A stretch of DNA of 64,000 nucleotides from positions 32,001-96,000 of the IMG/VR virus record IMGVR_UViG_3300044991_001618; one strand, given 5' to 3'. Positions 2,504-11,506 of this stretch are shown here, piece after piece. The position numbers were made by a program, and so were the translations under genes. The notes beneath the pieces were generated by a model. That model searched no databases, was not told the origin of the DNA, and saw only the letters and a program-made list of their open reading frames with translations. The stretch is from a virus. Positions within the stretch are counted from its first letter, which is position 1. Each line of letters begins with the position of its first letter.

Positions 2504-2535
2504 CAAATATACTACAAGTTGAATTAAATAGCAAA
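2504..2535 (-). promoter_or_regulatory. Bacteroidota primary-sigma promoter (-33/-7)
   Basis: Minus strand TTTG-N20-TATATTTG, matching consensus TTTG...TAnnTTTG. Confidence 0.75.
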
Positions 2536-3090
2536 TTCTGTTTCATCCCAATCAGGATCCTCATTTAATATAATACCTTTAATATATCCAGGTTTAACCA
2601 TTTTTTTTAATTGATTTTCAGTGTATTTGGTTAATTTTGTGTAAGTTATGTTTATTCCATCATCAACTTTCAATCCTTTTGGTAATGATTGTAATTTGTA
2701 ACAATGATTTAAATATAATGTACCATTAACTTTTAATCCTTCTGGTAATGATTCAAGTTTTTCACAGCCATATAAATCCAAATCACCCCCAACTTTCAAT
2801 AGTTCTGGTAATGATTTTATATTTGAATGTTCTAAAGATAACTCGCCCCCAACTTCCAAGTCTTCTGGTAATGAAGTTATTTTTGAATAATCTAAATTCA
2901 AATTGCCACTAACTTTCAATCCTTCTGGTAATGAAGTTATTTTAAAATTTGATAAATCCAAATCATCATTAACAATTAAATCTTCTTTTGTTAATGGTGA
3001 ACCATTTGTTATTTTCCATAAAAATGGAATTTTTGTACCATCTAACTTTTCAATAAAATTAAATATATTCTTTAGTGTTTCTTTTTCCAT
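2524..3090 (-). CDS. LRR array protein 1 (5 repeats, extended C-terminus)
   Basis: MEKETLK N-cap, LPxGLxV repeats, MVKPGYI C-cap. Confidence 0.9.
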   Translation of the reverse strand: MEKETLKNIFNFIEKLDGTKIPFLWKITNGSPLTKEDLIVNDDLDLSNFKITSLPEGLKVSGNLNLDYSKITSLPEDLEVGGELSLEHSNIKSLPELLKVGGDLDLYGCEKLESLPEGLKVNGTLYLNHCYKLQSLPKGLKVDDGINITYTKLTKYTENQLKKMVKPGYIKGIILNEDPDWDETEFAI

Positions 3091-3494
3091 TATCTAATTA
3101 TATTATTTATATATCCAGGATTAACCATTTGCCTTAATTCCTCAGTTGAATATTTTGTTAATGGTGTATTTTTAATAAACAAACGACCCCAAACTTTCAA
3201 CCCTTTTGGTAATGATGTTATATTTGAATGTCCCAAATCCAAATCCTCCCCAACTTTTAATCCTTCTGGTAATGATTGTATATTTTTACAACCATATAAA
3301 CTTAAAATATCCTCAACGTTCAATCCATCTGGTAATGATTCAATATCTGTTTCTGTTAAATCCAAATCCCCTTCAACAAATAACTCTTCATCTGTTAATG
3401 GTTCATTATTCATTAATTTCCACATAAATGGTTTATCCTTATTTTCTTCTTCTTCAAGGAATGTAAATATCTTTTTTAGTGTTTCTTTTTCCAT
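3090..3494 (-). CDS. LRR array protein 2 (3 repeats)
   Basis: Same architecture; TAATG overlap with neighbours. Confidence 0.9.
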   Translation of the reverse strand: MEKETLKKIFTFLEEEENKDKPFMWKLMNNEPLTDEELFVEGDLDLTETDIESLPDGLNVEDILSLYGCKNIQSLPEGLKVGEDLDLGHSNITSLPKGLKVWGRLFIKNTPLTKYSTEELRQMVNPGYINNIIR

Positions 3495-4141
3495 TATCTT
3501 TCTATATTTCCAAGTATAAATCCTGGTTTAACCATTTTTCTTAATTCATTATCTGAAAATTTTGCTAACCCAGAGTCGTGAATGGCCAAATTACCATAAA
3601 CCTCCAACCCTTTTGGTAATGAAGTTAAATTTTTGCAACGCATTAAATCTAACAATCTATTAACTTTTAATCCTTTTGGTAAAAATCCTATCTCTGAATC
3701 CTCCAAAGATAATATACCAACTTCCATTCCTTCTGGTAATGATTCCAAATATGGGGTGGTATTTAAATTTAATTCACCTTCAATTTTTAATCCTTTTGGT
3801 AATGATTGTATTTGTGTATATGATAAATCCAAATCTAATTTAACTTTTAATCCTTTTGGTAATTTTCTTATTTCTGTATAATTTAAAACTAAATGCCCTC
3901 CAACTTCCAATCCTTCTGGTAATGATTTAATATCTGAATTTTGTAAAAACAAATCACCTTCAACTTTCAATCCTTCTGGCAATTCTTCTATCTCTAAATC
4001 TGATAAATTCAAATCACCTTTAACATGTAAATCATCTTCTGTGAATGGAAAACCATTTGACCATTTCCACCTAAGTGGCGTATTCCTATTATCCTTCTTT
4101 TCAAGGAAATTAAATATCTTCTTTAATGTTTCTTTTTCCAT
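3494..4141 (-). CDS. LRR array protein 3 (7 repeats)
   Basis: Same architecture; TAATG overlap. Confidence 0.9.
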   Translation of the reverse strand: MEKETLKKIFNFLEKKDNRNTPLRWKWSNGFPFTEDDLHVKGDLNLSDLEIEELPEGLKVEGDLFLQNSDIKSLPEGLEVGGHLVLNYTEIRKLPKGLKVKLDLDLSYTQIQSLPKGLKIEGELNLNTTPYLESLPEGMEVGILSLEDSEIGFLPKGLKVNRLLDLMRCKNLTSLPKGLEVYGNLAIHDSGLAKFSDNELRKMVKPGFILGNIER

Positions 4142-4605
4142 TATCTATATATATATCTATTTAAAAAACTAGGCTCAACCATTTTTATTAATTCATCATC
4201 TGAAAATTTTGCTAATGGTGTTCCACCAATAAACAAATTTTGCCCAACTTTCAATCCTTTTGGTAATGATGCTATTTCAGAGTAGGATAAATCCAAATCA
4301 ACCCCAACTTCTAATCCTTCTGGCATAGAAGTTATTCTTGTGTTTGATAAATCTAAATGTCTCCCAACTTTCAATCCTTTTGGTAATGATTTAATATCAG
4401 AAAATTGTAAATACAAGTCACCTTCAACATATAAATTATCTGGCAATGTTTCTATCCCTGAATCTGAAAAATCCAAATCACCTTTAATATGCAAATCATC
4501 TTCTGTTAATGGTTCACCACTTGACCATTTCCATAATAATGGTGCTCTTATTTCATCATTCTTTTCAAGAAATTTAAATATCTTCTTTAATGTTTCTTTT
4601 TCCAT
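4141..4605 (-). CDS. LRR array protein 4 (4 repeats)
   Basis: Same architecture; TAATG overlap. Confidence 0.9.
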   Translation of the reverse strand: MEKETLKKIFKFLEKNDEIRAPLLWKWSSGEPLTEDDLHIKGDLDFSDSGIETLPDNLYVEGDLYLQFSDIKSLPKGLKVGRHLDLSNTRITSMPEGLEVGVDLDLSYSEIASLPKGLKVGQNLFIGGTPLAKFSDDELIKMVEPSFLNRYIYR

Positions 4606-4608
4606 TAT

Positions 4609-5031
4609 CTATCCTTTCTTCCACTTTCCACCCAATTTCTTATACCTTTTTGCCGCAGCACCATTACAATATGCGCTTGGGCATACTTTATACCTAGACC
4701 TTGCCCAACTCAAACATTGACTCCATAACTTGGGATTTGTTGGTTTATTCTTTTTTTCCTTTGCTTCTGTTATGTTCTGGCTATCCCTATTTTCAAATTC
4801 ATTCATCATAAAATCAAAAACTTGATCCAAGTTTTCTTTTGCAACTGTCACATGGTCATCAGCCCAATCATGGCCATTGGTCAACAATTCATTAATTTCA
4901 TCAGGTTGAAATTCAAGCAATAATTCACATTGTCTTTTAATTTGTTTTAAGTTTCCAAAAAACATATAATTTTCTGTTGCTTGCTCATTTATTGCATTCT
5001 TAACAATTTTTTTAATTACTGGATGTATCAT
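4609..5031 (-). CDS. Conserved viral hypothetical protein with C-terminal DUF5872-like basic domain
   Basis: PTNPKLW...PSAYCNGAAAKRYKKLGGKW motif; N-terminal NYMFFGNL...HDWADDH domain. Confidence 0.6.
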   Translation of the reverse strand: MIHPVIKKIVKNAINEQATENYMFFGNLKQIKRQCELLLEFQPDEINELLTNGHDWADDHVTVAKENLDQVFDFMMNEFENRDSQNITEAKEKKNKPTNPKLWSQCLSWARSRYKVCPSAYCNGAAAKRYKKLGGKWKKG

Positions 5032-5046
5032 ATCTTATTTTTTATT

Positions 5047-5053
5047 ATAAATA
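5047..5053 (-). promoter_or_regulatory. Candidate late promoter core TATTTAT
   Basis: 15 nt before ATG 5031; would drive LRR genes 1-4. Confidence 0.5.
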
Positions 5054-5170
5054 TCATTATTCTTTATTTTGATTATGGCTCTCATATTTTGATTTTAAGG
5101 GACTTTTTGTTTTAGCCTATTACTATGTCATCTTTATTAAAATCTGCTGTTGTGGTTAAATTGTATGTGG

Positions 5171-5710
5171 TTATATCCTAATTATTCTACCTATACGCCC
5201 AGGTTTAACCATTTCTCTTAATTCAGCATCTGAAAATTTGTCTAAACTATCTCCAACACTCACGGCTAAATATCCATTAACTTCCAATCCTTTTGGTAAT
5301 CTTTTTATTGGTGTATCCATTATTGATAACCAAAGGTCAATTACTAGCCCTTCTGGTAATGAAGTTATTTTTGTATTATGCAAATACAAAGAAGCACCAA
5401 TTTTAATATCATTTGGTATGTTTTTTATAATTGAATGCGATAACTCCAGAGAACCATCAACTTTTAACCCTTTTGGTAATTCTTCTATTTTTGAAAATCT
5501 AGTAATCATTCTACCTTTAACTTCCAAATTATCTGGTAATGATTTTAAAGTTGAATCTGTTAAATCTAAATCACCATTAACAATTAAATCTTCTTTTGTT
5601 AGGGGATCACCAAGTTTTAATTTCCAAATAAAGGTATCTCTATCTTTATGTTTTTTGTTTTCTTTCTTTTCAAGGAAATCAAATATATTTTTTATTGCTT
5701 CTTTTTCCAT
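5171..5710 (-). CDS. LRR array protein 5 (5 repeats)
   Basis: Same architecture; first 25 aa identical to protein 6. Confidence 0.9.
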   Translation of the reverse strand: MEKEAIKNIFDFLEKKENKKHKDRDTFIWKLKLGDPLTKEDLIVNGDLDLTDSTLKSLPDNLEVKGRMITRFSKIEELPKGLKVDGSLELSHSIIKNIPNDIKIGASLYLHNTKITSLPEGLVIDLWLSIMDTPIKRLPKGLEVNGYLAVSVGDSLDKFSDAELREMVKPGRIGRIIRI

Positions 5711-6318
5711 TATCTAATTATTTGCTCCTTTATAAATCCAGGTTTAACCATATTTCTTAATTCTTCATCAGAAAATTTTACTAATGGTGATCCACTTATA
5801 ATTAAAATCCCCCTAACTTTCAACCCTTTTGGTAATGATGTTAAACTTGTGCAATTTTCTAAATACAAATCACGGCCAACTTCCAATCCTTCTGGCAAGG
5901 ATGTTAAACTTGTGCAATTTTCTAAATCTAAATTATGCGCAACTTTCAATCCTTTTGGTAAAGATATTAAATTTGTGGAATTTTCTAAATATAAAGACGC
6001 TCCAAGTTCTAATCCTCTTGGCAGTGAAATTAAATCTTCACAACCTTCTAAATCTAAACGACCCCCAACTTTTAAGTTATCAGGTAATGATTTAATAGAT
6101 GAATAATTTAAAATCAAATAACCACCAACTTTCAACCCATCTGGTAATGAGGTTATTTTTGAATATGATAAATCCAAATTACCTTTTACATTTAACTCTT
6201 CTTCTGTTATTGGTTCATCAAATTTTAATTTCCAAATAATGCTATCCCTATCTTTATGTTTTTTATTTTCTTTCTTTTCAAGGAAATCAAATATATTTTT
6301 TATTGCTTCTTTTTCCAT
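5710..6318 (-). CDS. LRR array protein 6 (6 repeats)
   Basis: Same architecture; internal duplicated LENCTSLTS repeat. Confidence 0.9.
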   Translation of the reverse strand: MEKEAIKNIFDFLEKKENKKHKDRDSIIWKLKFDEPITEEELNVKGNLDLSYSKITSLPDGLKVGGYLILNYSSIKSLPDNLKVGGRLDLEGCEDLISLPRGLELGASLYLENSTNLISLPKGLKVAHNLDLENCTSLTSLPEGLEVGRDLYLENCTSLTSLPKGLKVRGILIISGSPLVKFSDEELRNMVKPGFIKEQIIR

Positions 6319-6797
6319 TATCTAATTATTTTACCATTTATAAACCCATCTGGTTCAACCATTTCTCTTATTTTTTCATCTGAAAGTTTTGCTAATGGAG
6401 TTTTTACAATATGTAAATTACGTTCAACTTTTAAACCTTTTGATAATGTTTCTATATCTGAATATGTTAAATCTAAATCGCGACCAACATATAAATCACC
6501 TGGCAAGGATTTGAAACTTGTCCATTCAAAATTCAAATCACCCTCAACAAATAATTTTTCTGGGAATGTTTTTAAACTTGAGAACCGAAAATCAGCATTT
6601 CCTATAACTTTTAACCCTTTTGGTAAATGTTGTATATTTATGCCAGATATATCCAAATCGCCTCTAACAATTAAATCTTCTTTTGTTAATGGTTCATTAA
6701 ACATAAATTTCCACCTTAAAGTTCCTTTGTTTTTATGTTTTTTATTGTCTTCTTTTTCAAGAAAATCAAGTATATTTTTTAGTGTTTCTTTTTCCAT
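6318..6797 (-). CDS. LRR array protein 7 (4 repeats)
   Basis: Same architecture. Confidence 0.9.
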   Translation of the reverse strand: MEKETLKNILDFLEKEDNKKHKNKGTLRWKFMFNEPLTKEDLIVRGDLDISGINIQHLPKGLKVIGNADFRFSSLKTFPEKLFVEGDLNFEWTSFKSLPGDLYVGRDLDLTYSDIETLSKGLKVERNLHIVKTPLAKLSDEKIREMVEPDGFINGKIIR

Positions 6798-7267
6798 TAT
6801 CTAATTATATTTCCTTTAAATGAACCATTATTTAAATTTTTATTTCTTCTTATTTCAGCATCTGTATATTTTTTGGCAAGGAAGGATTCTCCTATATATA
6901 AATTACCACCAACATATAAATTTTTTGGGATTTCTTCTATATCTGAATGTCTAAAATACAAATCACCCCCAACATATAAATTGTCTGGTAATGATTCTAT
7001 ATTTGTATGGGATAAGTTAAAACTATCCTTAACATATAACCCTTCTGGTAATGAGTTTATTTCTGATCCCAACAACCACAATTTACCTTCAACTCTCATC
7101 CCATTAGGTAATGAGGTTATAGTTGTAAATTCCAAATTTAAATTGCCTTTTATATTTAAATCCTCTTTTGTTAGTTCATTATTTACCCATTTCCATAAAA
7201 ATGGTGTTTTGATATCATCATTTTCTTCAAGGAAATCAAATATTCTTTTTAATGTTTCTTTTTCCAT
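6797..7267 (-). CDS. LRR array protein 8 (4 repeats)
   Basis: Same architecture; C-cap shared with protein 9. Confidence 0.9.
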   Translation of the reverse strand: MEKETLKRIFDFLEENDDIKTPFLWKWVNNELTKEDLNIKGNLNLEFTTITSLPNGMRVEGKLWLLGSEINSLPEGLYVKDSFNLSHTNIESLPDNLYVGGDLYFRHSDIEEIPKNLYVGGNLYIGESFLAKKYTDAEIRRNKNLNNGSFKGNIIR

Positions 7268-7740
7268 TATCTAATTATATTTCCTTTAAATGAACCATTA
7301 TTTAAATTTTTATTTCTTCTTATTTCACCATCTGTATATTTTTTGGCGAGGGGGGTCTCTTCTATATCTAATTCACCACCAACGTATAAATTTTTTGGTA
7401 TTTCTCCTATATTTGAATATTTAAACCATAAATCACCCCCAACATATAAATTGTCTGGTAATGATTCAATATATGTATGTGATACATCCAAACTACCCTT
7501 AACATATAGCCCTTCTGGTAATGTTTTTATTGCTGATGCAAATAATGACAAATCACCTTGAACTCTCAATCCCTCTGGTAATGAGGTTATTGCTGAATGA
7601 TTTAAAATTAAATCCCCATCAAAATTTAATTCATCTTCTGTAAATGGGTGATTAATTTTTACTTTATAAGCAAAAGGTTTTGGTCTATTTTCCTCTTTCT
7701 CAAGGAATTCAATTATTTTTTTTAATGTTTCTATTTCCAT
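7267..7740 (-). CDS. LRR array protein 9 (4 repeats)
   Basis: Same architecture; N-cap like protein 11, C-cap like protein 8. Confidence 0.9.
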   Translation of the reverse strand: MEIETLKKIIEFLEKEENRPKPFAYKVKINHPFTEDELNFDGDLILNHSAITSLPEGLRVQGDLSLFASAIKTLPEGLYVKGSLDVSHTYIESLPDNLYVGGDLWFKYSNIGEIPKNLYVGGELDIEETPLAKKYTDGEIRRNKNLNNGSFKGNIIR

Positions 7741-8279
7741 TACTCTCTTAATATTCCTTTTATAAATCCAGGTTTAACCATTTCTTTTAATTCAGCATTA
7801 GAAAATTTGGATAAACTATCATTACTATTTAAAACTAAATAACCCTTAATTATCAATCCTTTTGGTAATGAAGTTATTTTTGTTTTCTGCAAATACAAAG
7901 AACCACCAATTTCAATATCATCAGGTATATTTTTTATTTTTGAGTTCCTTAAATTCAAATTACCACCAACTTTCAATCCTTTTGGTAGTGATTCTATATT
8001 TGAACTTGCTAAAGATAAATAATCCCCAACTTCTAACCCTTCTGGTAATGAGACTATTGCCGAACAACCCATTAAATTAACCCAACCCTTAACTCTTAAT
8101 CCTTCTGGTAATGATGTTACTTTTGTATATGATAATTCCAAATTACCATTAATATTTAATTCATCATATGTTAATTCATTAAATATAACCTTCCATTTAA
8201 AACTACCTTTATCTCGGGGCATTTTATTTTCTTCCTTTTCAAGAAAATCAAGTATTTTTTTAAATGTTTTATTTTCCAT
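7740..8279 (-). CDS. LRR array protein 10 (5 repeats)
   Basis: Same architecture; C-half resembles protein 5. Confidence 0.9.
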   Translation of the reverse strand: MENKTFKKILDFLEKEENKMPRDKGSFKWKVIFNELTYDELNINGNLELSYTKVTSLPEGLRVKGWVNLMGCSAIVSLPEGLEVGDYLSLASSNIESLPKGLKVGGNLNLRNSKIKNIPDDIEIGGSLYLQKTKITSLPKGLIIKGYLVLNSNDSLSKFSNAELKEMVKPGFIKGILRE

Positions 8280-8282
8280 TAT

Positions 8283-8696
8283 CTACATATTTCCTATTAT
8301 TTCTCCTATATAACCATTTGGCTTTATCATATTCAATAATTCATTGTCTGAAATTTCTGTAAATTTTGTTCTGTAAATATATAAACTACCCCCAACTTTC
8401 AAGTCTTTTGGTAATGAGGTTAAACCCCAACACCCAGCTAACCATAAATTACCCTCAACTTCCAATCCTTCTGGTAATGTTTTTATATCTGAGTCTGTTA
8501 AATCTAAAACACGCCCAACTTTCAATCCTTCTGGTAATGAAGTTATTTTAAAATTTGATAAATCCAAATTACCTTCAATATTTAAATCTTTTTCTGTTAA
8601 GGGTTCATTATTTTTTACTTTATAAGCAAAAGGTTTTTTTCTATTTTCTTCCTTCTCAAGGAATTCAAGTATTCTTTTTAATGTTTCTTCTTTCAC
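8283..8696 (-). CDS. LRR array protein 11 (3 repeats, GTG start)
   Basis: Same architecture; GTGA overlap with protein 12. Confidence 0.88.
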   Translation of the reverse strand: MKEETLKRILEFLEKEENRKKPFAYKVKNNEPLTEKDLNIEGNLDLSNFKITSLPEGLKVGRVLDLTDSDIKTLPEGLEVEGNLWLAGCWGLTSLPKDLKVGGSLYIYRTKFTEISDNELLNMIKPNGYIGEIIGNM

Positions 8697-9289
8697 AATC
8701 TTGATATTTTTTCTTTTATAAATCCAGGATAAACCATTTCTCTTAATTGTCCATCTGTGTATTTTCGTAATGGGGTATTTTCTATATACAATACCCCCCT
8801 AACTTCTAACCCTTTTGGTAATGATGTTATTTTTGTATCTTTTAAATTCAAATATTTACCAACTTTTAATCCTTCTGGTAGTGAAATTAAATCTTTGCAA
8901 GAATATAAATCCAAAAAACCCCTAATTTTTAAGTCATTAGGTAATGAACTAATGGATGTATAATTTAAATGCAAATTACCACCAACTTTCAATCCTTTTG
9001 GTAATGAGGTTATTTTTGAATATGCTAAAAACAAATGCTTCCCAACTTTTAATCCTTCTGGTAATGATTGTATTCTTGAAAATGTTAAAATTAAGTCCCC
9101 CTCAACTTTTAACCCTTCTGGTAATGATTCTATACTTGAGTACATTAAATTCAAATCATCTTTTATATTTAATTCATCTTTTGTTAATGGTTTATTAAAT
9201 AATAACTTCCACCTTAAATTATTTTTAGGTATTACCCCTTCCTTTTCTTCAAGAAAATCAAGTATTTTTTCAATTGTTTCTTTTTCCAT
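8693..9289 (-). CDS. LRR array protein 12 (6 repeats)
   Basis: Same architecture. Confidence 0.9.
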   Translation of the reverse strand: MEKETIEKILDFLEEKEGVIPKNNLRWKLLFNKPLTKDELNIKDDLNLMYSSIESLPEGLKVEGDLILTFSRIQSLPEGLKVGKHLFLAYSKITSLPKGLKVGGNLHLNYTSISSLPNDLKIRGFLDLYSCKDLISLPEGLKVGKYLNLKDTKITSLPKGLEVRGVLYIENTPLRKYTDGQLREMVYPGFIKEKISRL

Positions 9290-9996
9290 TATCTAACTAT
9301 TTTTCCTTTTATAAATCCAGGTTGAATCATCTTTCTTAATCTATAATTACTAATTTCATCTAAATGGGAAAGATTCAACATTATAGATCCATAAACTTTC
9401 AATCCTTTTGGTAATGAGGTTAAATCTGTTAGTCTTAAATCCAAATCACCACCAACTTTTAAACCTTCTGGCAATGATTGTATATTTTTACAACCAAATA
9501 ACACCAAATCTTTCCTAACTTCAAGTCCTTCTGGTAATGAAGTTATTTTTGTATTATTTAAAACTAAATGCCCTCCAACTTTCAATCCTTCTGGTAATGA
9601 AGTTATTTTTGTATTATTTAAATACAAATCCCTACCAACTTTCAATCCTTTTGGTAGCAAGGTTATATCTGTATTAGATGAAAACAAATCACCACCAACT
9701 TCCAATCCTTCAGGTAATGATGTTATTTTTGTTGAACCTAAATTCAAATTACCCCCAACTTTCAAACCTTCTGGCAATGAGGTTATTTTTGATCTTCTTA
9801 AATCGAAATTACCACCAACTTTCAAACCTTCTGGTAATGAGGTTATTGTTGTTTCATAAAACCACAAATTACCTATAACATCTAAATCTTCTTTGGTTAT
9901 TGGCTCATTATTTAATATTTTCCATTTAAATGGTGCTCTATGTTCTCCTTTCTCTTCAAGGAATTCAAATATTCTTTTTAATGTTTCTTTTTCCAT
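9289..9996 (-). CDS. LRR array protein 13 (8 repeats)
   Basis: Same architecture; most homogeneous repeats. Confidence 0.9.
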   Translation of the reverse strand: MEKETLKRIFEFLEEKGEHRAPFKWKILNNEPITKEDLDVIGNLWFYETTITSLPEGLKVGGNFDLRRSKITSLPEGLKVGGNLNLGSTKITSLPEGLEVGGDLFSSNTDITLLPKGLKVGRDLYLNNTKITSLPEGLKVGGHLVLNNTKITSLPEGLEVRKDLVLFGCKNIQSLPEGLKVGGDLDLRLTDLTSLPKGLKVYGSIMLNLSHLDEISNYRLRKMIQPGFIKGKIVR

Positions 9997-10003
9997 TATC
10001 TAA

Positions 10004-11506
10004 TTATTTTTTATTTATAATAAAAAAGTGCAATTGTTTTTTATAAGTGGTAATCTCCCCAGCAATTTGAACCTTTAAATCAACAAAATATTTATTTGGT
10101 ATTTTATCTCTTGTGTCAAAATTAAAATAATATTCATTTGGTGTTCTGTTAAATTCTGTCCAATCTTGAACTTGAACTTGGGTTTCCCCCTCCTTAACAT
10201 AAACACGATAAAATCCTTTAATGTTTGTTAATAATTCACTTGTGCTATATGCTTTTTTAATTATAACCCCAATCTTTCTAACATCAGTATTGAGTATTTT
10301 TTCCCCTTGCATAATGTTATAGAAATCAAAATTATATGTTTCACTTTCTGTTGTCTTTGTTCCAGTTTTAATTCGATTATTTACATCATATAATACAAAT
10401 TCATTTTCAACATTGGGTAATGTAATTCCATTTAAGGTCATCCCACTCCAAACATCAGTAAATACCATAGGTGCTGTATATCCACTAAATACATTTGGTA
10501 CAGATACCTCATACACACCCTTGGTAATTAATTTTGTTGATAAGTTTGTGCAACCAGTAACAACATTCCCATCATTGTCAAATATATTAACAATTGGATT
10601 GTTATCCAAATTTGAATACGAATCTTCATCTGTTACATAAAGATATAATTTATTTACCCTATTCTTAACAAAATTATTTCTATCATCCTTAATCAAATCA
10701 TCATAAGTTGTTAATAGATAAGGTTCATAAAATGTCTGGGTGTGCCTTGAAAAAAAGCCAACAGAATAGCTTTCCGTTAACCCTGTTGCATTTTCATAAG
10801 ATGGGGTATAAGCAATGCCCCAACCAGAATAAGATGTGGTAGAACCGCTTAAAATGGCGTTTATTTCATTTGTCATGTTAAATGAAACATCTTCATTACC
10901 AAATTCAAAATGTTTGGTATCAAGAATGGTCAATCCGCTATAATTAACATTTCCCGTATTTTTATTGTTATAAATACCAGGTTCAGTCCATCCGCTTAAT
11001 GTTTGAGCATTATACCAATTTGAGGGGGTTGATGCAAATGAATTATCATTCTTTATAACTAGGGGATATTTCGCCCCTGACCCTGAATTTAAGTTTTTTG
11101 AATAATCTGTATAATCATAACCTACACCTTCATCCCAATTTTGAACATACCCTGTGCTACCACTACTCAATGGAATTCTAAATAAAACCAAATCAAAGGA
11201 AGATGCTCTACGTTTTTGATTTGGCATTTTCCCATTTAATAAGGATTCATCAAAAGATGCTGAATTTTTTAAGACTAATGTATGTGTGACACTTGACAAT
11301 GAACCGCTAAAAATGATATCATCATTAACTTTATCAATTAGAGGTTCTAAATCTAAATCAAAAATTAGCCTTGTTGGTCCATATGCTGGGATTAAGTAAT
11401 CTGTTGCACCATAAGTTAATTCAATAACAGGGTTTCTACCTGTATTTATTTTTGAATTTGCAATTAAAGTGTTGTTTCTATTAAAATAAGATAGATGAAT
11501 TGACAT
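10004..11506 (-). CDS. Putative virion structural protein
   Basis: 500 aa, S/T/G/N-rich beta-type composition, next to spike gene, TATTTAT upstream. Confidence 0.55.
   Translation of the reverse strand: MSIHLSYFNRNNTLIANSKINTGRNPVIELTYGATDYLIPAYGPTRLIFDLDLEPLIDKVNDDIIFSGSLSSVTHTLVLKNSASFDESLLNGKMPNQKRRASSFDLVLFRIPLSSGSTGYVQNWDEGVGYDYTDYSKNLNSGSGAKYPLVIKNDNSFASTPSNWYNAQTLSGWTEPGIYNNKNTGNVNYSGLTILDTKHFEFGNEDVSFNMTNEINAILSGSTTSYSGWGIAYTPSYENATGLTESYSVGFFSRHTQTFYEPYLLTTYDDLIKDDRNNFVKNRVNKLYLYVTDEDSYSNLDNNPIVNIFDNDGNVVTGCTNLSTKLITKGVYEVSVPNVFSGYTAPMVFTDVWSGMTLNGITLPNVENEFVLYDVNNRIKTGTKTTESETYNFDFYNIMQGEKILNTDVRKIGVIIKKAYSTSELLTNIKGFYRVYVKEGETQVQVQDWTEFNRTPNEYYFNFDTRDKIPNKYFVDLKVQIAGEITTYKKQLHFFIINKK

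What the first reader, a model, noticed from the sequence alone, without database searches (positions are those of the whole stretch)
2911..9622. Mosaic identical DNA blocks show recent module shuffling between LRR paralogs
Seen in otherwise divergent paralogs. 5640-5723 = 6248-6331 (1 mismatch in 84 nt; N-caps of genes 5/6). 6783-6877 = 7253-7347 (1 mismatch in 95 nt; C-caps of genes 8/9). 2911-2963 = 8517-8569 (53/53 nt; one whole module shared by genes 1 and 11, 5.6 kb apart). KPFAYKVK N-cap is shared by genes 9 and 11, GCKNIQSLPEGLKVG by 2 and 13, GGHLVLN by 3 and 13, and IKNIPxDI...SLYLxxTKITSLP by 5 and 10. Intragenic duplications: 5837-5864/5900-5927 and 9527-9562/9587-9622. Gene 9 thus has an 11-type N-cap and an 8-type C-cap. 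Inference: gene conversion or unequal crossover anchored on the conserved ~25-nt repeat core assembles new binders.
Basis: partly seen in the sequence, partly recalled or inferred. Interest (0 to 1): 0.82.

Follow-up and report, generated by a model that had tools for sequence, protein, structure and literature searches.

The report
Recombining LRR gene cassettes in phage
A large uncultured T4-like phage carries 13 back-to-back genes for small leucine-rich-repeat proteins here (33 on the contig), and comparison with related phage contigs shows that recombination at short conserved sequences swaps, adds and removes whole genes, gene ends and single repeats: a familiar mechanism acting on a phage gene family of unknown function.

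Summary
In detail: all five coordinate pairs match exactly as stated. By length alone, only the 53-, 84- and 95-nt blocks exceed chance. The 28- and 36-nt intragenic matches do not, although their host modules are in the top 1% of module identity.

- N-cap and C-cap histories conflict. For gene 9 against genes 8 and 11, Fisher p = 5.5e-10.
- Independent metagenome contigs, 99.1-99.5% identical, reproduce genes 11-10-9-8-7 and their junction blocks, so these are not assembly artefacts.
- Close relatives carry the same cassettes in other orders: genes 9-12 or gene 4 absent, gene 12 next to a gene-11/gene-9 hybrid, one module missing from gene 12, and two extra modules plus a different N-cap in gene 2.
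- A 66-nt patch copied from the gene 6/5 junction onto the gene 7/6 junction is a datable gene conversion.

The correction concerns the anchor. Whole-gene changes and the longest identical blocks sit at the conserved stop/start junction plus N-cap start.

The mechanism is ordinary homologous recombination. I found no retroelement or sign of programmed assembly on this partial contig. The proteins' targets are unknown. This scan has reported the same phenomenon in several other phage genomes.

The parts
2524..4605 (-). LRR genes 1-4 (C1 2524-3090, C2 3090-3494, C3 3494-4141, C4 4141-4605). They are linked by one-base stop/start overlaps (TAATG).
   Evidence: ORFs; repeat segmentation. C4 is absent from the close relative L002. 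C2 in L002 has a different N-cap and two extra modules.
4609..5031 (-). Non-LRR 140-aa gene inside the array. It is a conserved anchor that splits the array in every related contig.
   Evidence: It scores 57-60 of 60 nt per sliding window in L002, L068, L070 and L071. Its only family hit is a weak DUF5872 match (E 0.006).
5171..9996 (-). LRR genes 5-13 (C5 5171-5710, C6 5710-6318, C7 6318-6797, C8 6797-7267, C9 7267-7740, C10 7740-8279, C11 8283-8696, C12 8693-9289, C13 9289-9996).
   Evidence: The gene-9 protein is predicted as an LRR solenoid (pLDDT 89.6). Gene 13 matches the solved LRR protein FlrP, PDB 8z5u, at E 5e-27.
6248..6331 (-). Gene 7/6 junction block, identical to 5640-5723 (the gene 6/5 junction) except for 1 nt. 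Its exact core, 6266-6331, is a gene-conversion patch.
   Evidence: Window gene 6 differs from its L002 ortholog at 8 of 66 nt here and at 5 of 555 nt elsewhere (Fisher p 9e-6). The window sequence in the patch equals the window's own gene 6/5 junction.
5640..5723 (-). Gene 6/5 junction block, the likely donor of the patch at 6266-6331.
   Evidence: The 13 nt upstream of its start codon are the same in L002, so this copy is the older state at that position.
7253..7347 (-). Gene 9 C-cap end plus gene 8 start. It is identical to 6783-6877 (gene 8 C-cap end plus gene 7 start) except for 1 nt.
   Evidence: There are no synonymous differences in the last 26 codons of genes 8 and 9, against dS 0.38-0.57 in their first 93 codons. 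Contig L067 reproduces the block.
6783..6877 (-). Partner of the 7253-7347 block.
8517..8569 (-). 53-nt block in gene 11, the first repeat strand plus the repeat core, identical to 2911-2963 in gene 1.
   Evidence: Identity falls to about 67-70% immediately on both sides. The 3' boundary of the block lies at the end of the repeat core.
2911..2963 (-). Partner of the 53-nt block, in gene 1.
   Evidence: The L002 ortholog of gene 1 scores 59-60 of 60 in the painting windows around this block.
8990..9049 (-). One 60-nt module of gene 12 (module 2). It is absent from the otherwise about 99% identical ortholog in L001.
   Evidence: Both breakpoints lie inside the repeat core, with 8 nt identical within a 24/27 match. 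The module is 95% identical to a module of gene B1, in another array about 13 kb away.
4110..4148 (-). 39-nt exact direct repeat (junction plus N-cap start), shared with 4574-4612. The two copies bracket gene 4.
   Evidence: L002 has a single copy at this position and lacks gene 4 exactly.
4574..4612 (-). Second copy of the 39-nt repeat that brackets gene 4.
3370..3463 (-). N-cap interior of gene 2. In L002 it is replaced by sequence closest to the array-A genes A2 and A7.
   Evidence: The flanks on both sides are identical between the two contigs.
8669..8687 (-). Crossover zone in the gene 11 start (+10 to +28). It joins to the equivalent zone of gene 9 (7713-7731) in four related contigs.
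   Evidence: In L068, L070, L071 and L073 the gene after gene 12 has the gene-11 junction and first about 27 nt, then continues as gene 9.

Best explanation
**What it is.** The stretch is a tandem array of 13 intact genes that appear translationally coupled. They encode small capped LRR proteins: a constant N-cap, 2 to 7 full modules of 20-21 residues, and a constant C-cap. It is one of four such arrays, 33 genes in all, on a 113-kb fragment of an uncultured T4-like phage whose genome is roughly 300 kb.

**How the mosaic arises.** Ordinary homology-guided recombination acts on two kinds of short conserved sequence.
- One is the stop/start junction plus the first 30-45 nt of the N-cap.
- The other is the roughly 24-nt repeat core.

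**Kinds of event.**
- Short non-crossover patches (gene conversion, tens to about 100 nt) copy one paralog's junction, cap piece or module onto another.
- Unequal crossovers between misaligned paralogs, or between co-infecting relatives, add or delete whole genes, create hybrid genes, and change module number.
- Because the exchange partners are homologous positions of paralogs, the products stay in frame.

**Shown here:** the blocks, the discordant histories, the variants in related contigs and their breakpoints.

**Inferred:** the enzymes involved (presumably the phage's own recombination and replication machinery), and the idea that the reshuffled variable face gives new binding specificities.
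For: **Blocks are real and beyond chance.**
- The coordinates were verified.
- Exact matches of 45 nt or more number 8, against about 1 expected.

**Discordant histories within the genome.**
- The nearest N-cap partner and nearest C-cap partner differ for 30 of 33 genes.
- The cap trees conflict with high support.
- The C-cap data reject a gene 9 + gene 11 clade (AU p = 0.013).
- The gene 9 / 8 / 11 triplet gives p = 5.5e-10, and 47 triplets pass Bonferroni correction.
- Synonymous divergence between genes 8 and 9 falls from 0.57 to 0.00 along the gene.

**Independent assemblies.**
- L066 is 99.5% identical and L067 is 99.1% identical. Between them they reproduce genes 11-10-9-8-7.

**Variants in related contigs.** Cassettes keep about 95-100% identity where orthology is clear, but their order and content differ between contigs.

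**Breakpoints lie in shared sequence.**
- Gene 4 is bracketed by a 39-nt repeat.
- The genes 12-9 difference joins at the junction and start, about 22 nt.
- The gene 11 / gene 9 hybrid joins at +10 to +28.
- The one-module difference in gene 12 breaks inside the repeat core.
- The two-module difference in gene 2 lies between 40-nt direct repeats that contain the core.

**A datable conversion.** A 66-nt patch in gene 6 equals the window's own gene 6/5 junction. Gene 6 differs from its L002 ortholog at 8 of 66 nt in the patch and 5 of 555 nt elsewhere, p = 9e-6.

**Exchange between arrays.**
- Module 2 of gene 12 is 95% identical to a module of array B, against a family median of 65%.
- Gene 2 in L002 carries an array-A-type N-cap.

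**Conserved anchor sequences.** Mean pairwise identity is 0.76 at the junction, 0.70 at the core and 0.56 in the rest of the module.
Against: - AU tests on the short cap alignments are weak. The N-cap data do not reject a gene 8 + gene 9 clade (p = 0.21), and five other tested clades are not rejected either.
- The triplet test can be inflated if one lineage sped up in one segment only. This does not apply to genes 8 and 9, whose C-caps are nearly identical.
- The direction of each event (gain or loss, donor or recipient) is mostly unresolved.
- The one-module variant of gene 12 (L001) and the altered gene 2 (L002) are each seen in one contig only.
- All contigs come from metagenome assemblies, and no reads were available.
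- The fragment carries no recognisable RecA/UvsX-type recombinase. The contig is only 36% complete, so this says little.
- Intragenomic exchange and exchange between co-infecting phages cannot be separated for the cassette-order differences.
Confidence: 0.85

Rival explanations
1. Simple tandem duplication followed by divergence. On this view the near-identical blocks are just the parts of the caps held constant by purifying selection, and no exchange between paralogs has occurred.
For: The caps are conserved family-wide. A few gene pairs do agree in both caps: A2/A4, A1/A5 and D1/D5. Most AU tests do not reject the alternative clades.
Against: - The blocks are pair-specific, not family-wide. 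Median cap identity is only 0.67-0.69.
- There are no synonymous differences in the last 26 codons of genes 8 and 9, against dS of about 0.4-0.6 upstream.
- The triplet test gives p = 5.5e-10.
- Genes 5 and 6 share an N-cap start that their L002 orthologs do not share.
- Hybrid genes and cap replacements are seen in relatives.
Confidence: 0.03
2. Assembly artefact. On this view short-read assemblers jumped between paralogs at shared sequences, creating false hybrids, false cassette orders or collapsed repeats.
For: All sequences are metagenome contigs. The shared blocks (22-108 nt) could confuse an assembler using small k-mers. Two variants (L001 gene 12, L002 gene 2) rest on single contigs.
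Against: - The window's gene order 11-10-9-8-7, with both junction blocks, is reproduced at 99.1-99.5% identity by two other contigs.
- The gene 12 / hybrid 9 / X / Y / gene 5 order, or part of it, is seen in four contigs from different samples.
- The window and L002 share the order 8-7-6-5 / 140-aa gene / 3.
- An assembler cannot create the identical blocks themselves.
Confidence: 0.05
3. The mosaic comes mainly from homologous exchange between different co-infecting phage strains, each with its own cassette set, rather than from ectopic exchange between paralogs of one genome.
For: Cassettes of about 99-100% identity sit among different neighbours in different contigs. Divergence between the window and L002 swings from 0% to about 20% over roughly 100-nt scales, as expected if segments were imported from diverged relatives.
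Against: - The 66-nt patch in gene 6 has its donor in the same genome.
- The gene 4 and module indels are bracketed by direct repeats within one array.
- Near-identical modules are shared between arrays B and C of one contig.
- The two routes are not exclusive, and both use the same conserved anchors.
Confidence: 0.35
4. A programmed diversification system is at work: a diversity-generating retroelement, a shufflon-type invertase, or lamprey-VLR-like assembly of one expressed gene from silent cassettes.
For: The layout (constant caps, variable modules, short conserved anchors) looks superficially like the lamprey VLR system. The first 20 residues, within the predicted N-terminal helix, have lower model confidence (pLDDT 64-71).
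Against: - There is no reverse transcriptase on the contig, although the contig is only 36% complete.
- The changes are whole-module and whole-gene indels and patches, not adenine-specific substitutions.
- All 13 genes are complete ORFs in one orientation with their own start and stop codons. There are therefore no silent cassettes or inverted repeats.
- Breakpoints fall at several different positions, not at one site.
Confidence: 0.03

Closest known systems
PeSL-mediated modular shuffling in the hyperplastic regions of T4-like phages (Arbiol et al. 2010, PMC2839356; Comeau et al. 2014, PMC4122927)
   Same: Both occur in T4-like phages. In both, close relatives differ by insertion, deletion and replacement of small non-essential genes, and the events are bounded by a short conserved sequence repeated between the genes. 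In both, recombination between those repeats keeps the products viable.
   Different: PeSLs are intergenic promoter plus stem-loop terminator cassettes of about 100 bp. Here there is no intergenic space: the anchor is a stop/start overlap plus the coding N-cap start, and a second anchor lies inside the coding repeats. The shuffled genes are all paralogs of one family, so parts of genes are exchanged as well.
Tandem LRR protein locus of Flavobacterium psychrophilum (Altae-Tran et al. 2020, PMC10392669; Duchaud et al. 2007 as cited there)
   Same: Both are tandem arrays of many small LRR genes with hypervariable positions on one face. In both, gene number, repeat number and repeat sequence differ between strains despite conserved flanks, and both show recombination signatures without mobile-element genes.
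   Different: That locus is bacterial, and its proteins carry a secretion peptide and a type 9 secretion signal. Its repeats are about 22 residues. The locus is littered with broken gene fragments joined at 1-5 bp microhomologies, which points to illegitimate recombination. Here the locus is in a phage, the N-terminus does not look like a signal peptide, every gene is intact and in frame, and the breakpoints sit in 8-40 nt of shared sequence.
Clustered plant NLR/LRR resistance genes that evolve by unequal crossing-over and intergenic exchange (for example the RPP8 family, PMC6771003, abstract only)
   Same: Both are tandem LRR paralogs with mosaic ancestry, copy-number variation and exchange between paralogs. 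In both, this is thought to renew recognition specificities.
   Different: Those are eukaryotic immune receptors with signalling domains, evolving over meiotic generations. Here the proteins are about 15-27 kDa, LRR-only, in a virus.
Vibrio alginolyticus FlrP (PDB 8z5u, 8z5w, 8z60; bioRxiv 10.64898/2025.12.04.692373)
   Same: It is the closest solved structure by sequence (E 5e-27). It has the same 20-residue repeat type and a beta-solenoid fold.
   Different: FlrP is a single-copy, Sec-secreted periplasmic protein that binds the flagellar rod. It has a different head and tail, and neither the phage N-cap nor the phage C-cap.
Lamprey and hagfish variable lymphocyte receptors (background knowledge; named in PMC10392669)
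   Same: Both are capped LRR binders whose modules are recombined through short shared sequences.
   Different: VLR assembly is somatic, programmed, and builds one expressed gene from silent cassettes. Here all genes are complete and the changes are germline-type differences between phage lineages.

Membership tests
Leucine-rich repeat (LRR) proteins, bacterial 20-residue type | Tandem repeats of about 20-29 residues with the LxxLxLxx(N/T) framework | tested here: met
   92 modules of 20 residues and 28 of 21 residues. The consensus is ITSLPEGLKVGGDLDLNYTK. Framework positions have low entropy, and positions 13, 15, 17, 18 and 20 have high entropy at 3.0-3.6 bits.
Leucine-rich repeat (LRR) proteins, bacterial 20-residue type | Beta-solenoid fold with one strand per repeat | tested here: met
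   The AlphaFold2 model of gene 9 has pLDDT 89.6 and pTM 0.80, with regularly spaced short strands. All 48 listed Foldseek PDB hits are LRR proteins, though at weak E-values of 4e-3 or worse.
Leucine-rich repeat (LRR) proteins, bacterial 20-residue type | Significant sequence match to a known LRR protein or model | tested here: met
   PDB 8z5u at E 5e-27, and SspH1, SlrP and IpaH LRR domains at 4e-8 to 5e-3. The Pfam LRR models stay below their cut-offs: LRR_4 scores 19.2 against a cut-off of 27.
FlrP (Vibrio flagellar rod LRR protein) | Sec signal peptide and periplasmic location on the flagellar rod | tested here: not met
   The N-termini read MEKETLKKIFDFLEE, charged and predicted helical, with no hydrophobic signal segment. 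This was judged by eye; no signal-peptide predictor was run. Rod binding is not testable here.
PeSL modular shuffling (T4-like phages) | Differences between close relatives are bounded by a conserved repeated sequence | tested here: met
   The gene 4, genes 9-12 and gene 11/9 differences all join within the conserved junction and N-cap start.
PeSL modular shuffling (T4-like phages) | The repeated sequence is an intergenic early promoter plus stem-loop terminator | tested here: not met
   The genes overlap by one base (TAATG) or four bases (GTGA), so there is no intergenic DNA to hold such a cassette.
Diversity-generating retroelement | Reverse transcriptase with a template/variable repeat pair differing at adenines | tested here: not met
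   No RVT_1 match on the contig, although the contig is only 36% complete. The variation consists of indels and patches rather than adenine-specific changes.
VLR-type programmed assembly | An incomplete expressed gene completed from flanking silent cassettes | tested here: not met
   All 13 genes are complete ORFs with a start codon, both caps and a stop codon.
Flavobacterium psychrophilum-type LRR locus | Strain-variable tandem LRR genes between conserved flanks | tested here: met
Flavobacterium psychrophilum-type LRR locus | Secretion signals, and gene fragments joined at 1-5 bp microhomologies | tested here: not met
   No signal-like termini and no fragments between genes. Breakpoints lie in 8-40 nt of shared sequence.

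The most novel reading that the evidence does not exclude
The conserved junction and leader sequence and the repeat core may be more than passive by-products of protein conservation. They may be maintained partly because they act as recombination anchors. The four arrays would then work as a population-level, continually re-dealt library of binders, which lets this phage lineage re-target host proteins or surfaces on the timescale of strain turnover. That would be a viral counterpart of LRR-based immune repertoires.
Probability: 0.2. Interest if true: 0.8.

Novelty: new variant of a known kind. Interest (0 to 1): 0.55.

Why it matters
This locus shows recombination remodelling a gene family in a phage at three scales: patch, module and whole gene. 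The remodelling happened between lineages whose shared cassettes differ by about 1% or less. That makes it a natural system for measuring how fast a virus can renew a set of binding proteins.

The practical value depends on learning what the proteins bind. If they target host defence or host surface components, the arrays would mark an arms-race locus in abundant uncultured large phages. They would also offer a compact, naturally diversified LRR scaffold.

The mechanism itself is not new.

Tried and rejected
- **BLAST for the blocks.** All-against-all BLASTN among the 33 genes failed to isolate the blocks, because they are swallowed by longer, lower-identity alignments. I replaced it with an exact-match scan.
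- **AU tests.** These have little power on cap alignments of 126-159 columns; only one of eight was significant. I therefore relied on site-pattern triplet tests and on comparison with orthologs.
- **Family libraries.** Pfam and PHROGs give no usable family for the LRR genes or their neighbours.
- **Neighbouring genes.** The 500-aa upstream gene has no solved relative and only a weak Atlas lead to a carbohydrate-binding module. The 502-aa gene has no PDB match.
- **Gene 10 relatives.** A search of viral contigs found only 42-44% identical relatives.
- **Closed or busy tools.** One metagenome scan failed because the machine was busy, and succeeded on retry.
- **Recombination genes.** No reverse transcriptase and no RecA/UvsX were found on the fragment. 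The RecA/UvsX absence says little, because the contig is 36% complete.
- **Literature.** Searches found no paper on phage LRR gene arrays in the held library.
- **L003.** This contig, whose flanking gene is 81% identical, is too diverged for cassette orthology except for gene 5.

Full report
**Setting**

The window is bases 32001-96000 of a 112,963-bp IMG/VR virus contig. CheckV rates the contig 36% complete, which implies a genome of roughly 300 kb. GC content is 28.8%. A T4-type major capsid gene lies at 3-746 (PHROG 138, E 8e-51). Its nearest named relatives are Flavobacterium and Microcystis myophages and uncultured huge phages, at about 45% identity.

A conserved non-LRR gene of 140 aa at 4609-5031 interrupts them. 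The same contig holds three more arrays, giving 33 paralogs in all.

**The proteins**

- Each protein has a constant N-cap beginning MEKETLKKIF.FLE.
- It then has 2 to 7 full modules of 20-21 residues, with consensus ITSLPEGLKVGGDLDLNYTK.
- It ends in a constant C-cap, typically ...ELR.MVKPGFIKG.I.R.
- Gene 13 matches the solved LRR protein FlrP (PDB 8z5u) at E 5e-27. The paper describes FlrP as a Sec-secreted protein that binds the flagellar rod.
- An AlphaFold2 model of gene 9 is a confident LRR solenoid (pLDDT 89.6), and only LRR proteins appear in the fold search.
- Variability concentrates at module positions 13, 15, 17, 18 and 20, at 3.0-3.6 bits. By general knowledge of LRR proteins, these are the x positions of the xLxLxx strand on the concave face.
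- The family is large in metagenomes, with more than 2,000 hits. One cultured phage, Edwardsiella phage Edno5, has a homolog annotated as hypothetical.

**Checking the observation**

All five coordinate pairs are exact, and the shared peptides are nearly identical at the DNA level.

A scan of all maximal exact matches among the four arrays shows a geometric bulk up to about 40 nt. Beyond it lie eight outliers of 45-108 nt, where about one is expected.

- The 53-nt block and the 66- and 75-nt exact cores of the 84- and 95-nt blocks are among these outliers.
- The 28-nt intragenic match is ordinary as an exact match, and the 36-nt match is borderline.
- Their host modules are nevertheless 84% and 87% identical, the top 1% of module pairs. 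Recent tandem duplication of those modules therefore remains likely.
- The two longest blocks straddle gene junctions rather than lying within a cap.

**Mosaic ancestry within the genome**

- The nearest N-cap partner and nearest C-cap partner differ for 30 of 33 genes.
- Maximum-likelihood trees pair genes 9 and 11 in the N-cap (99/95) and genes 8 and 9 in the C-cap (99/100).
- AU tests on these short alignments are weak. The C-cap data reject genes 9 + 11 (p = 0.013). The N-cap data do not reject genes 8 + 9 (p = 0.21).
- A site-pattern test has more power. In the N-cap, gene 9 agrees with gene 8 at 12 informative sites and with gene 11 at 28. In the C-cap the counts are 43 and 3. Fisher p = 5.5e-10, or 9e-6 after correction for 16,368 triplets, of which 47 pass.
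- Synonymous divergence between genes 8 and 9 is 0.57, 0.46 and 0.38 over the first 93 codons and 0.00 over the last 26. Protein-level constraint alone does not explain the identical block.

**Assembly check**

- L067 is 99.1% identical over 1,988 nt and carries genes 11-10-9-8-7.
- L066 is 99.5% identical over 1,489 nt and carries genes 11-10-9 and the start of gene 8. It has a different gene upstream of gene 11.
- Between them they reproduce the window's order and both junction blocks.

**Direct evidence from relatives**

The flanking 500-aa gene led to syntenic loci, and the gene 9 protein led to metagenome contigs. Cassette orders downstream of the 500-aa gene are shown below; a vertical bar marks the conserved 140-aa gene.

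| Contig | Cassette order |
|---|---|
| Window | 13 12 11 10 9 8 7 6 5 \| 4 3 2 1 |
| L002 | new, 13 8 7 6 5 \| 3 2* 1 |
| L068 | new, 12, hybrid 11/9, X, Y, 5 \| Z, 1-like |
| L070 | 12, hybrid 11/9, X, W, Y, 5 \| ... |
| L071 | 12, hybrid 11/9, X, Y, 5 \| 3-like, Z, 1-like |
| L073 | 12, hybrid 11/9, ... |
| L001 | gene 12 lacking one module, ... |
| L072 | a gene with a gene-5/6/7-type N-cap on a gene-9 body and C-cap |

 Shared cassettes are mostly 95-100% identical. Gene 6 differs from its L002 ortholog at only 5 of 555 nt outside one patch.

**Breakpoints**

- Gene 4, exactly 465 nt, is bracketed in the window by a 39-nt exact repeat (junction plus N-cap start). L002 has one copy of that sequence and no gene 4.
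- In L002, the gene 13 end runs into the gene 12-type start for about 17 nt and then continues as gene 8. The exchange lies in about 22 nt shared by all junctions.
- In four contigs, the gene after gene 12 has gene 11's GTG start and first about 27 nt, then becomes gene 9. This explains why genes 9 and 11 share the KPFAYKVK N-cap.
- Gene 12 in L001 lacks exactly 60 nt. Both ends of the gap lie inside the repeat core, with 8 identical nt within a 24/27 match. The module concerned is 95% identical to a module in array B.
- Gene 2 in L002 has 123 extra nt, two modules, between 40-nt direct repeats that include the core. About 100 nt of its N-cap resemble the array-A genes.

**A datable conversion**

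In the window, genes 5 and 6 share 66 identical nt from 13 nt upstream of the start codon to +53. Their L002 orthologs differ from each other there. Window gene 6 differs from L002 gene 6 at 8 of these 66 nt, and at 5 of the other 555 nt (p = 9e-6). The sequence on both sides of the patch stays orthologous. This is therefore a non-crossover patch, most simply copied from the gene 6/5 junction onto the gene 7/6 junction after the two phage lineages split.

**Mechanism and anchors**

Mean pairwise identity is 0.76 at the junction and N-cap start, 0.70 over the repeat core region and 0.56 in the rest of the module.

- Gene-level events and most of the longest identical blocks use the junction and N-cap start.
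- No reverse transcriptase is present on the fragment.
- The breakpoints are not at one fixed site, and all genes are complete. I therefore see no sign of a programmed system.
- Exchange within one genome is shown by the patch and by modules shared between arrays. Exchange between co-infecting relatives is likely too, and cannot be separated for the cassette-order differences.

**Comparison with what is known**

- The nearest described process in T4-like phages is shuffling of small genes by recombination between conserved promoter-terminator cassettes (PMC2839356; PMC4122927). Here the anchors are coding sequence and a stop/start overlap, and parts of genes move as well.
- The nearest described locus is the strain-variable tandem LRR array of Flavobacterium psychrophilum (PMC10392669). 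That locus is bacterial and its proteins are secreted. It is full of fragments joined at 1-5 bp microhomologies.
- Plant NLR clusters are the classic parallel (PMC6771003, abstract).
- Notes from this scan report the same behaviour in other phage genomes and in array D of this contig. My exact-match scan recovers their 108-nt block at 64890-64997 = 66734-66841.

**Function**

Function is unknown. My best guess is that these are binding proteins whose variable concave face is under pressure to change. They could act inside the host, possibly after injection, or on the virion surface.

- The array directly follows, and in L002 overlaps by stop/start, a 500-aa gene of unknown function that has a weak carbohydrate-binding lead.
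- The first 20 residues, which lie within the predicted N-terminal helix (residues 3-17), are the least confident part of the model, at pLDDT 64-71.
- None of this was tested.

**Verdict**

The mechanism is familiar. The substrate, a phage LRR cassette family, does not appear in the literature I could search.

Noticed in passing
window 4609-5031 (-): A 140-aa non-LRR gene sits inside the hypervariable array. It scores 57-60 of 60 nt per window in every related contig and always splits the array at the same place. Its C-terminal CPSAYCNGAAAKRYKKLGGKW segment gives only a weak DUF5872 match (E 0.006).
   Followed up: partly
window 8693-8696 (gene 12/11 junction): Gene 11 starts with GTG and overlaps gene 12 by 4 nt (GTGA), unlike the TAATG overlap at most other junctions. 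The same GTG junction follows gene 12 in L068, L070, L071 and L073.
   Followed up: partly
window 10004-11506 (-) and L002:10001-11988: The 500-aa gene upstream of the array has no Pfam, PHROG or PDB relative, and only a weak Atlas lead to carbohydrate-binding module CBM96. In L002 its stop overlaps the start of the first LRR gene (ATAATG), which suggests co-expression with the array.
   Followed up: partly
N-termini of all 33 LRR genes, e.g. window 9952-9996 (-): The constant leader MEKETLKKIF.FLE(E/K) falls in the lowest-confidence part of the model: the first 20 residues have pLDDT 64-71. Another note in this scan suggests it may be a capsid-targeting, protease-cleaved leader like those of the T4 internal proteins. 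I did not test this.
   Followed up: no
homologs P0048, P0060, P0070: Some relatives of about 390-410 aa carry a PcfJ-like domain (PF14284). One lies on a 1.16-Mb NCBI contig, so the repeat type also occurs fused to other domains in cellular genomes.
   Followed up: no
window 5190-5430 (C-terminal half of gene 5): Against L002 this stretch is about 20% diverged, while the neighbouring gene 6 is about 1% diverged. Three metagenome contigs (L068, L070, L071) match the window's gene 5 at about 98%. L002 may therefore carry the replaced version.
   Followed up: partly
G000:C1:26993-28747 (array B, before the window) and L072: In L072, painting places the DNA just upstream of the array-B-type LRR genes immediately before array B on this contig. 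Another note in this scan reports that array B follows the prohead protease gene. I did not check that annotation. If it holds, at least one array lies within the head-gene block.
   Followed up: no
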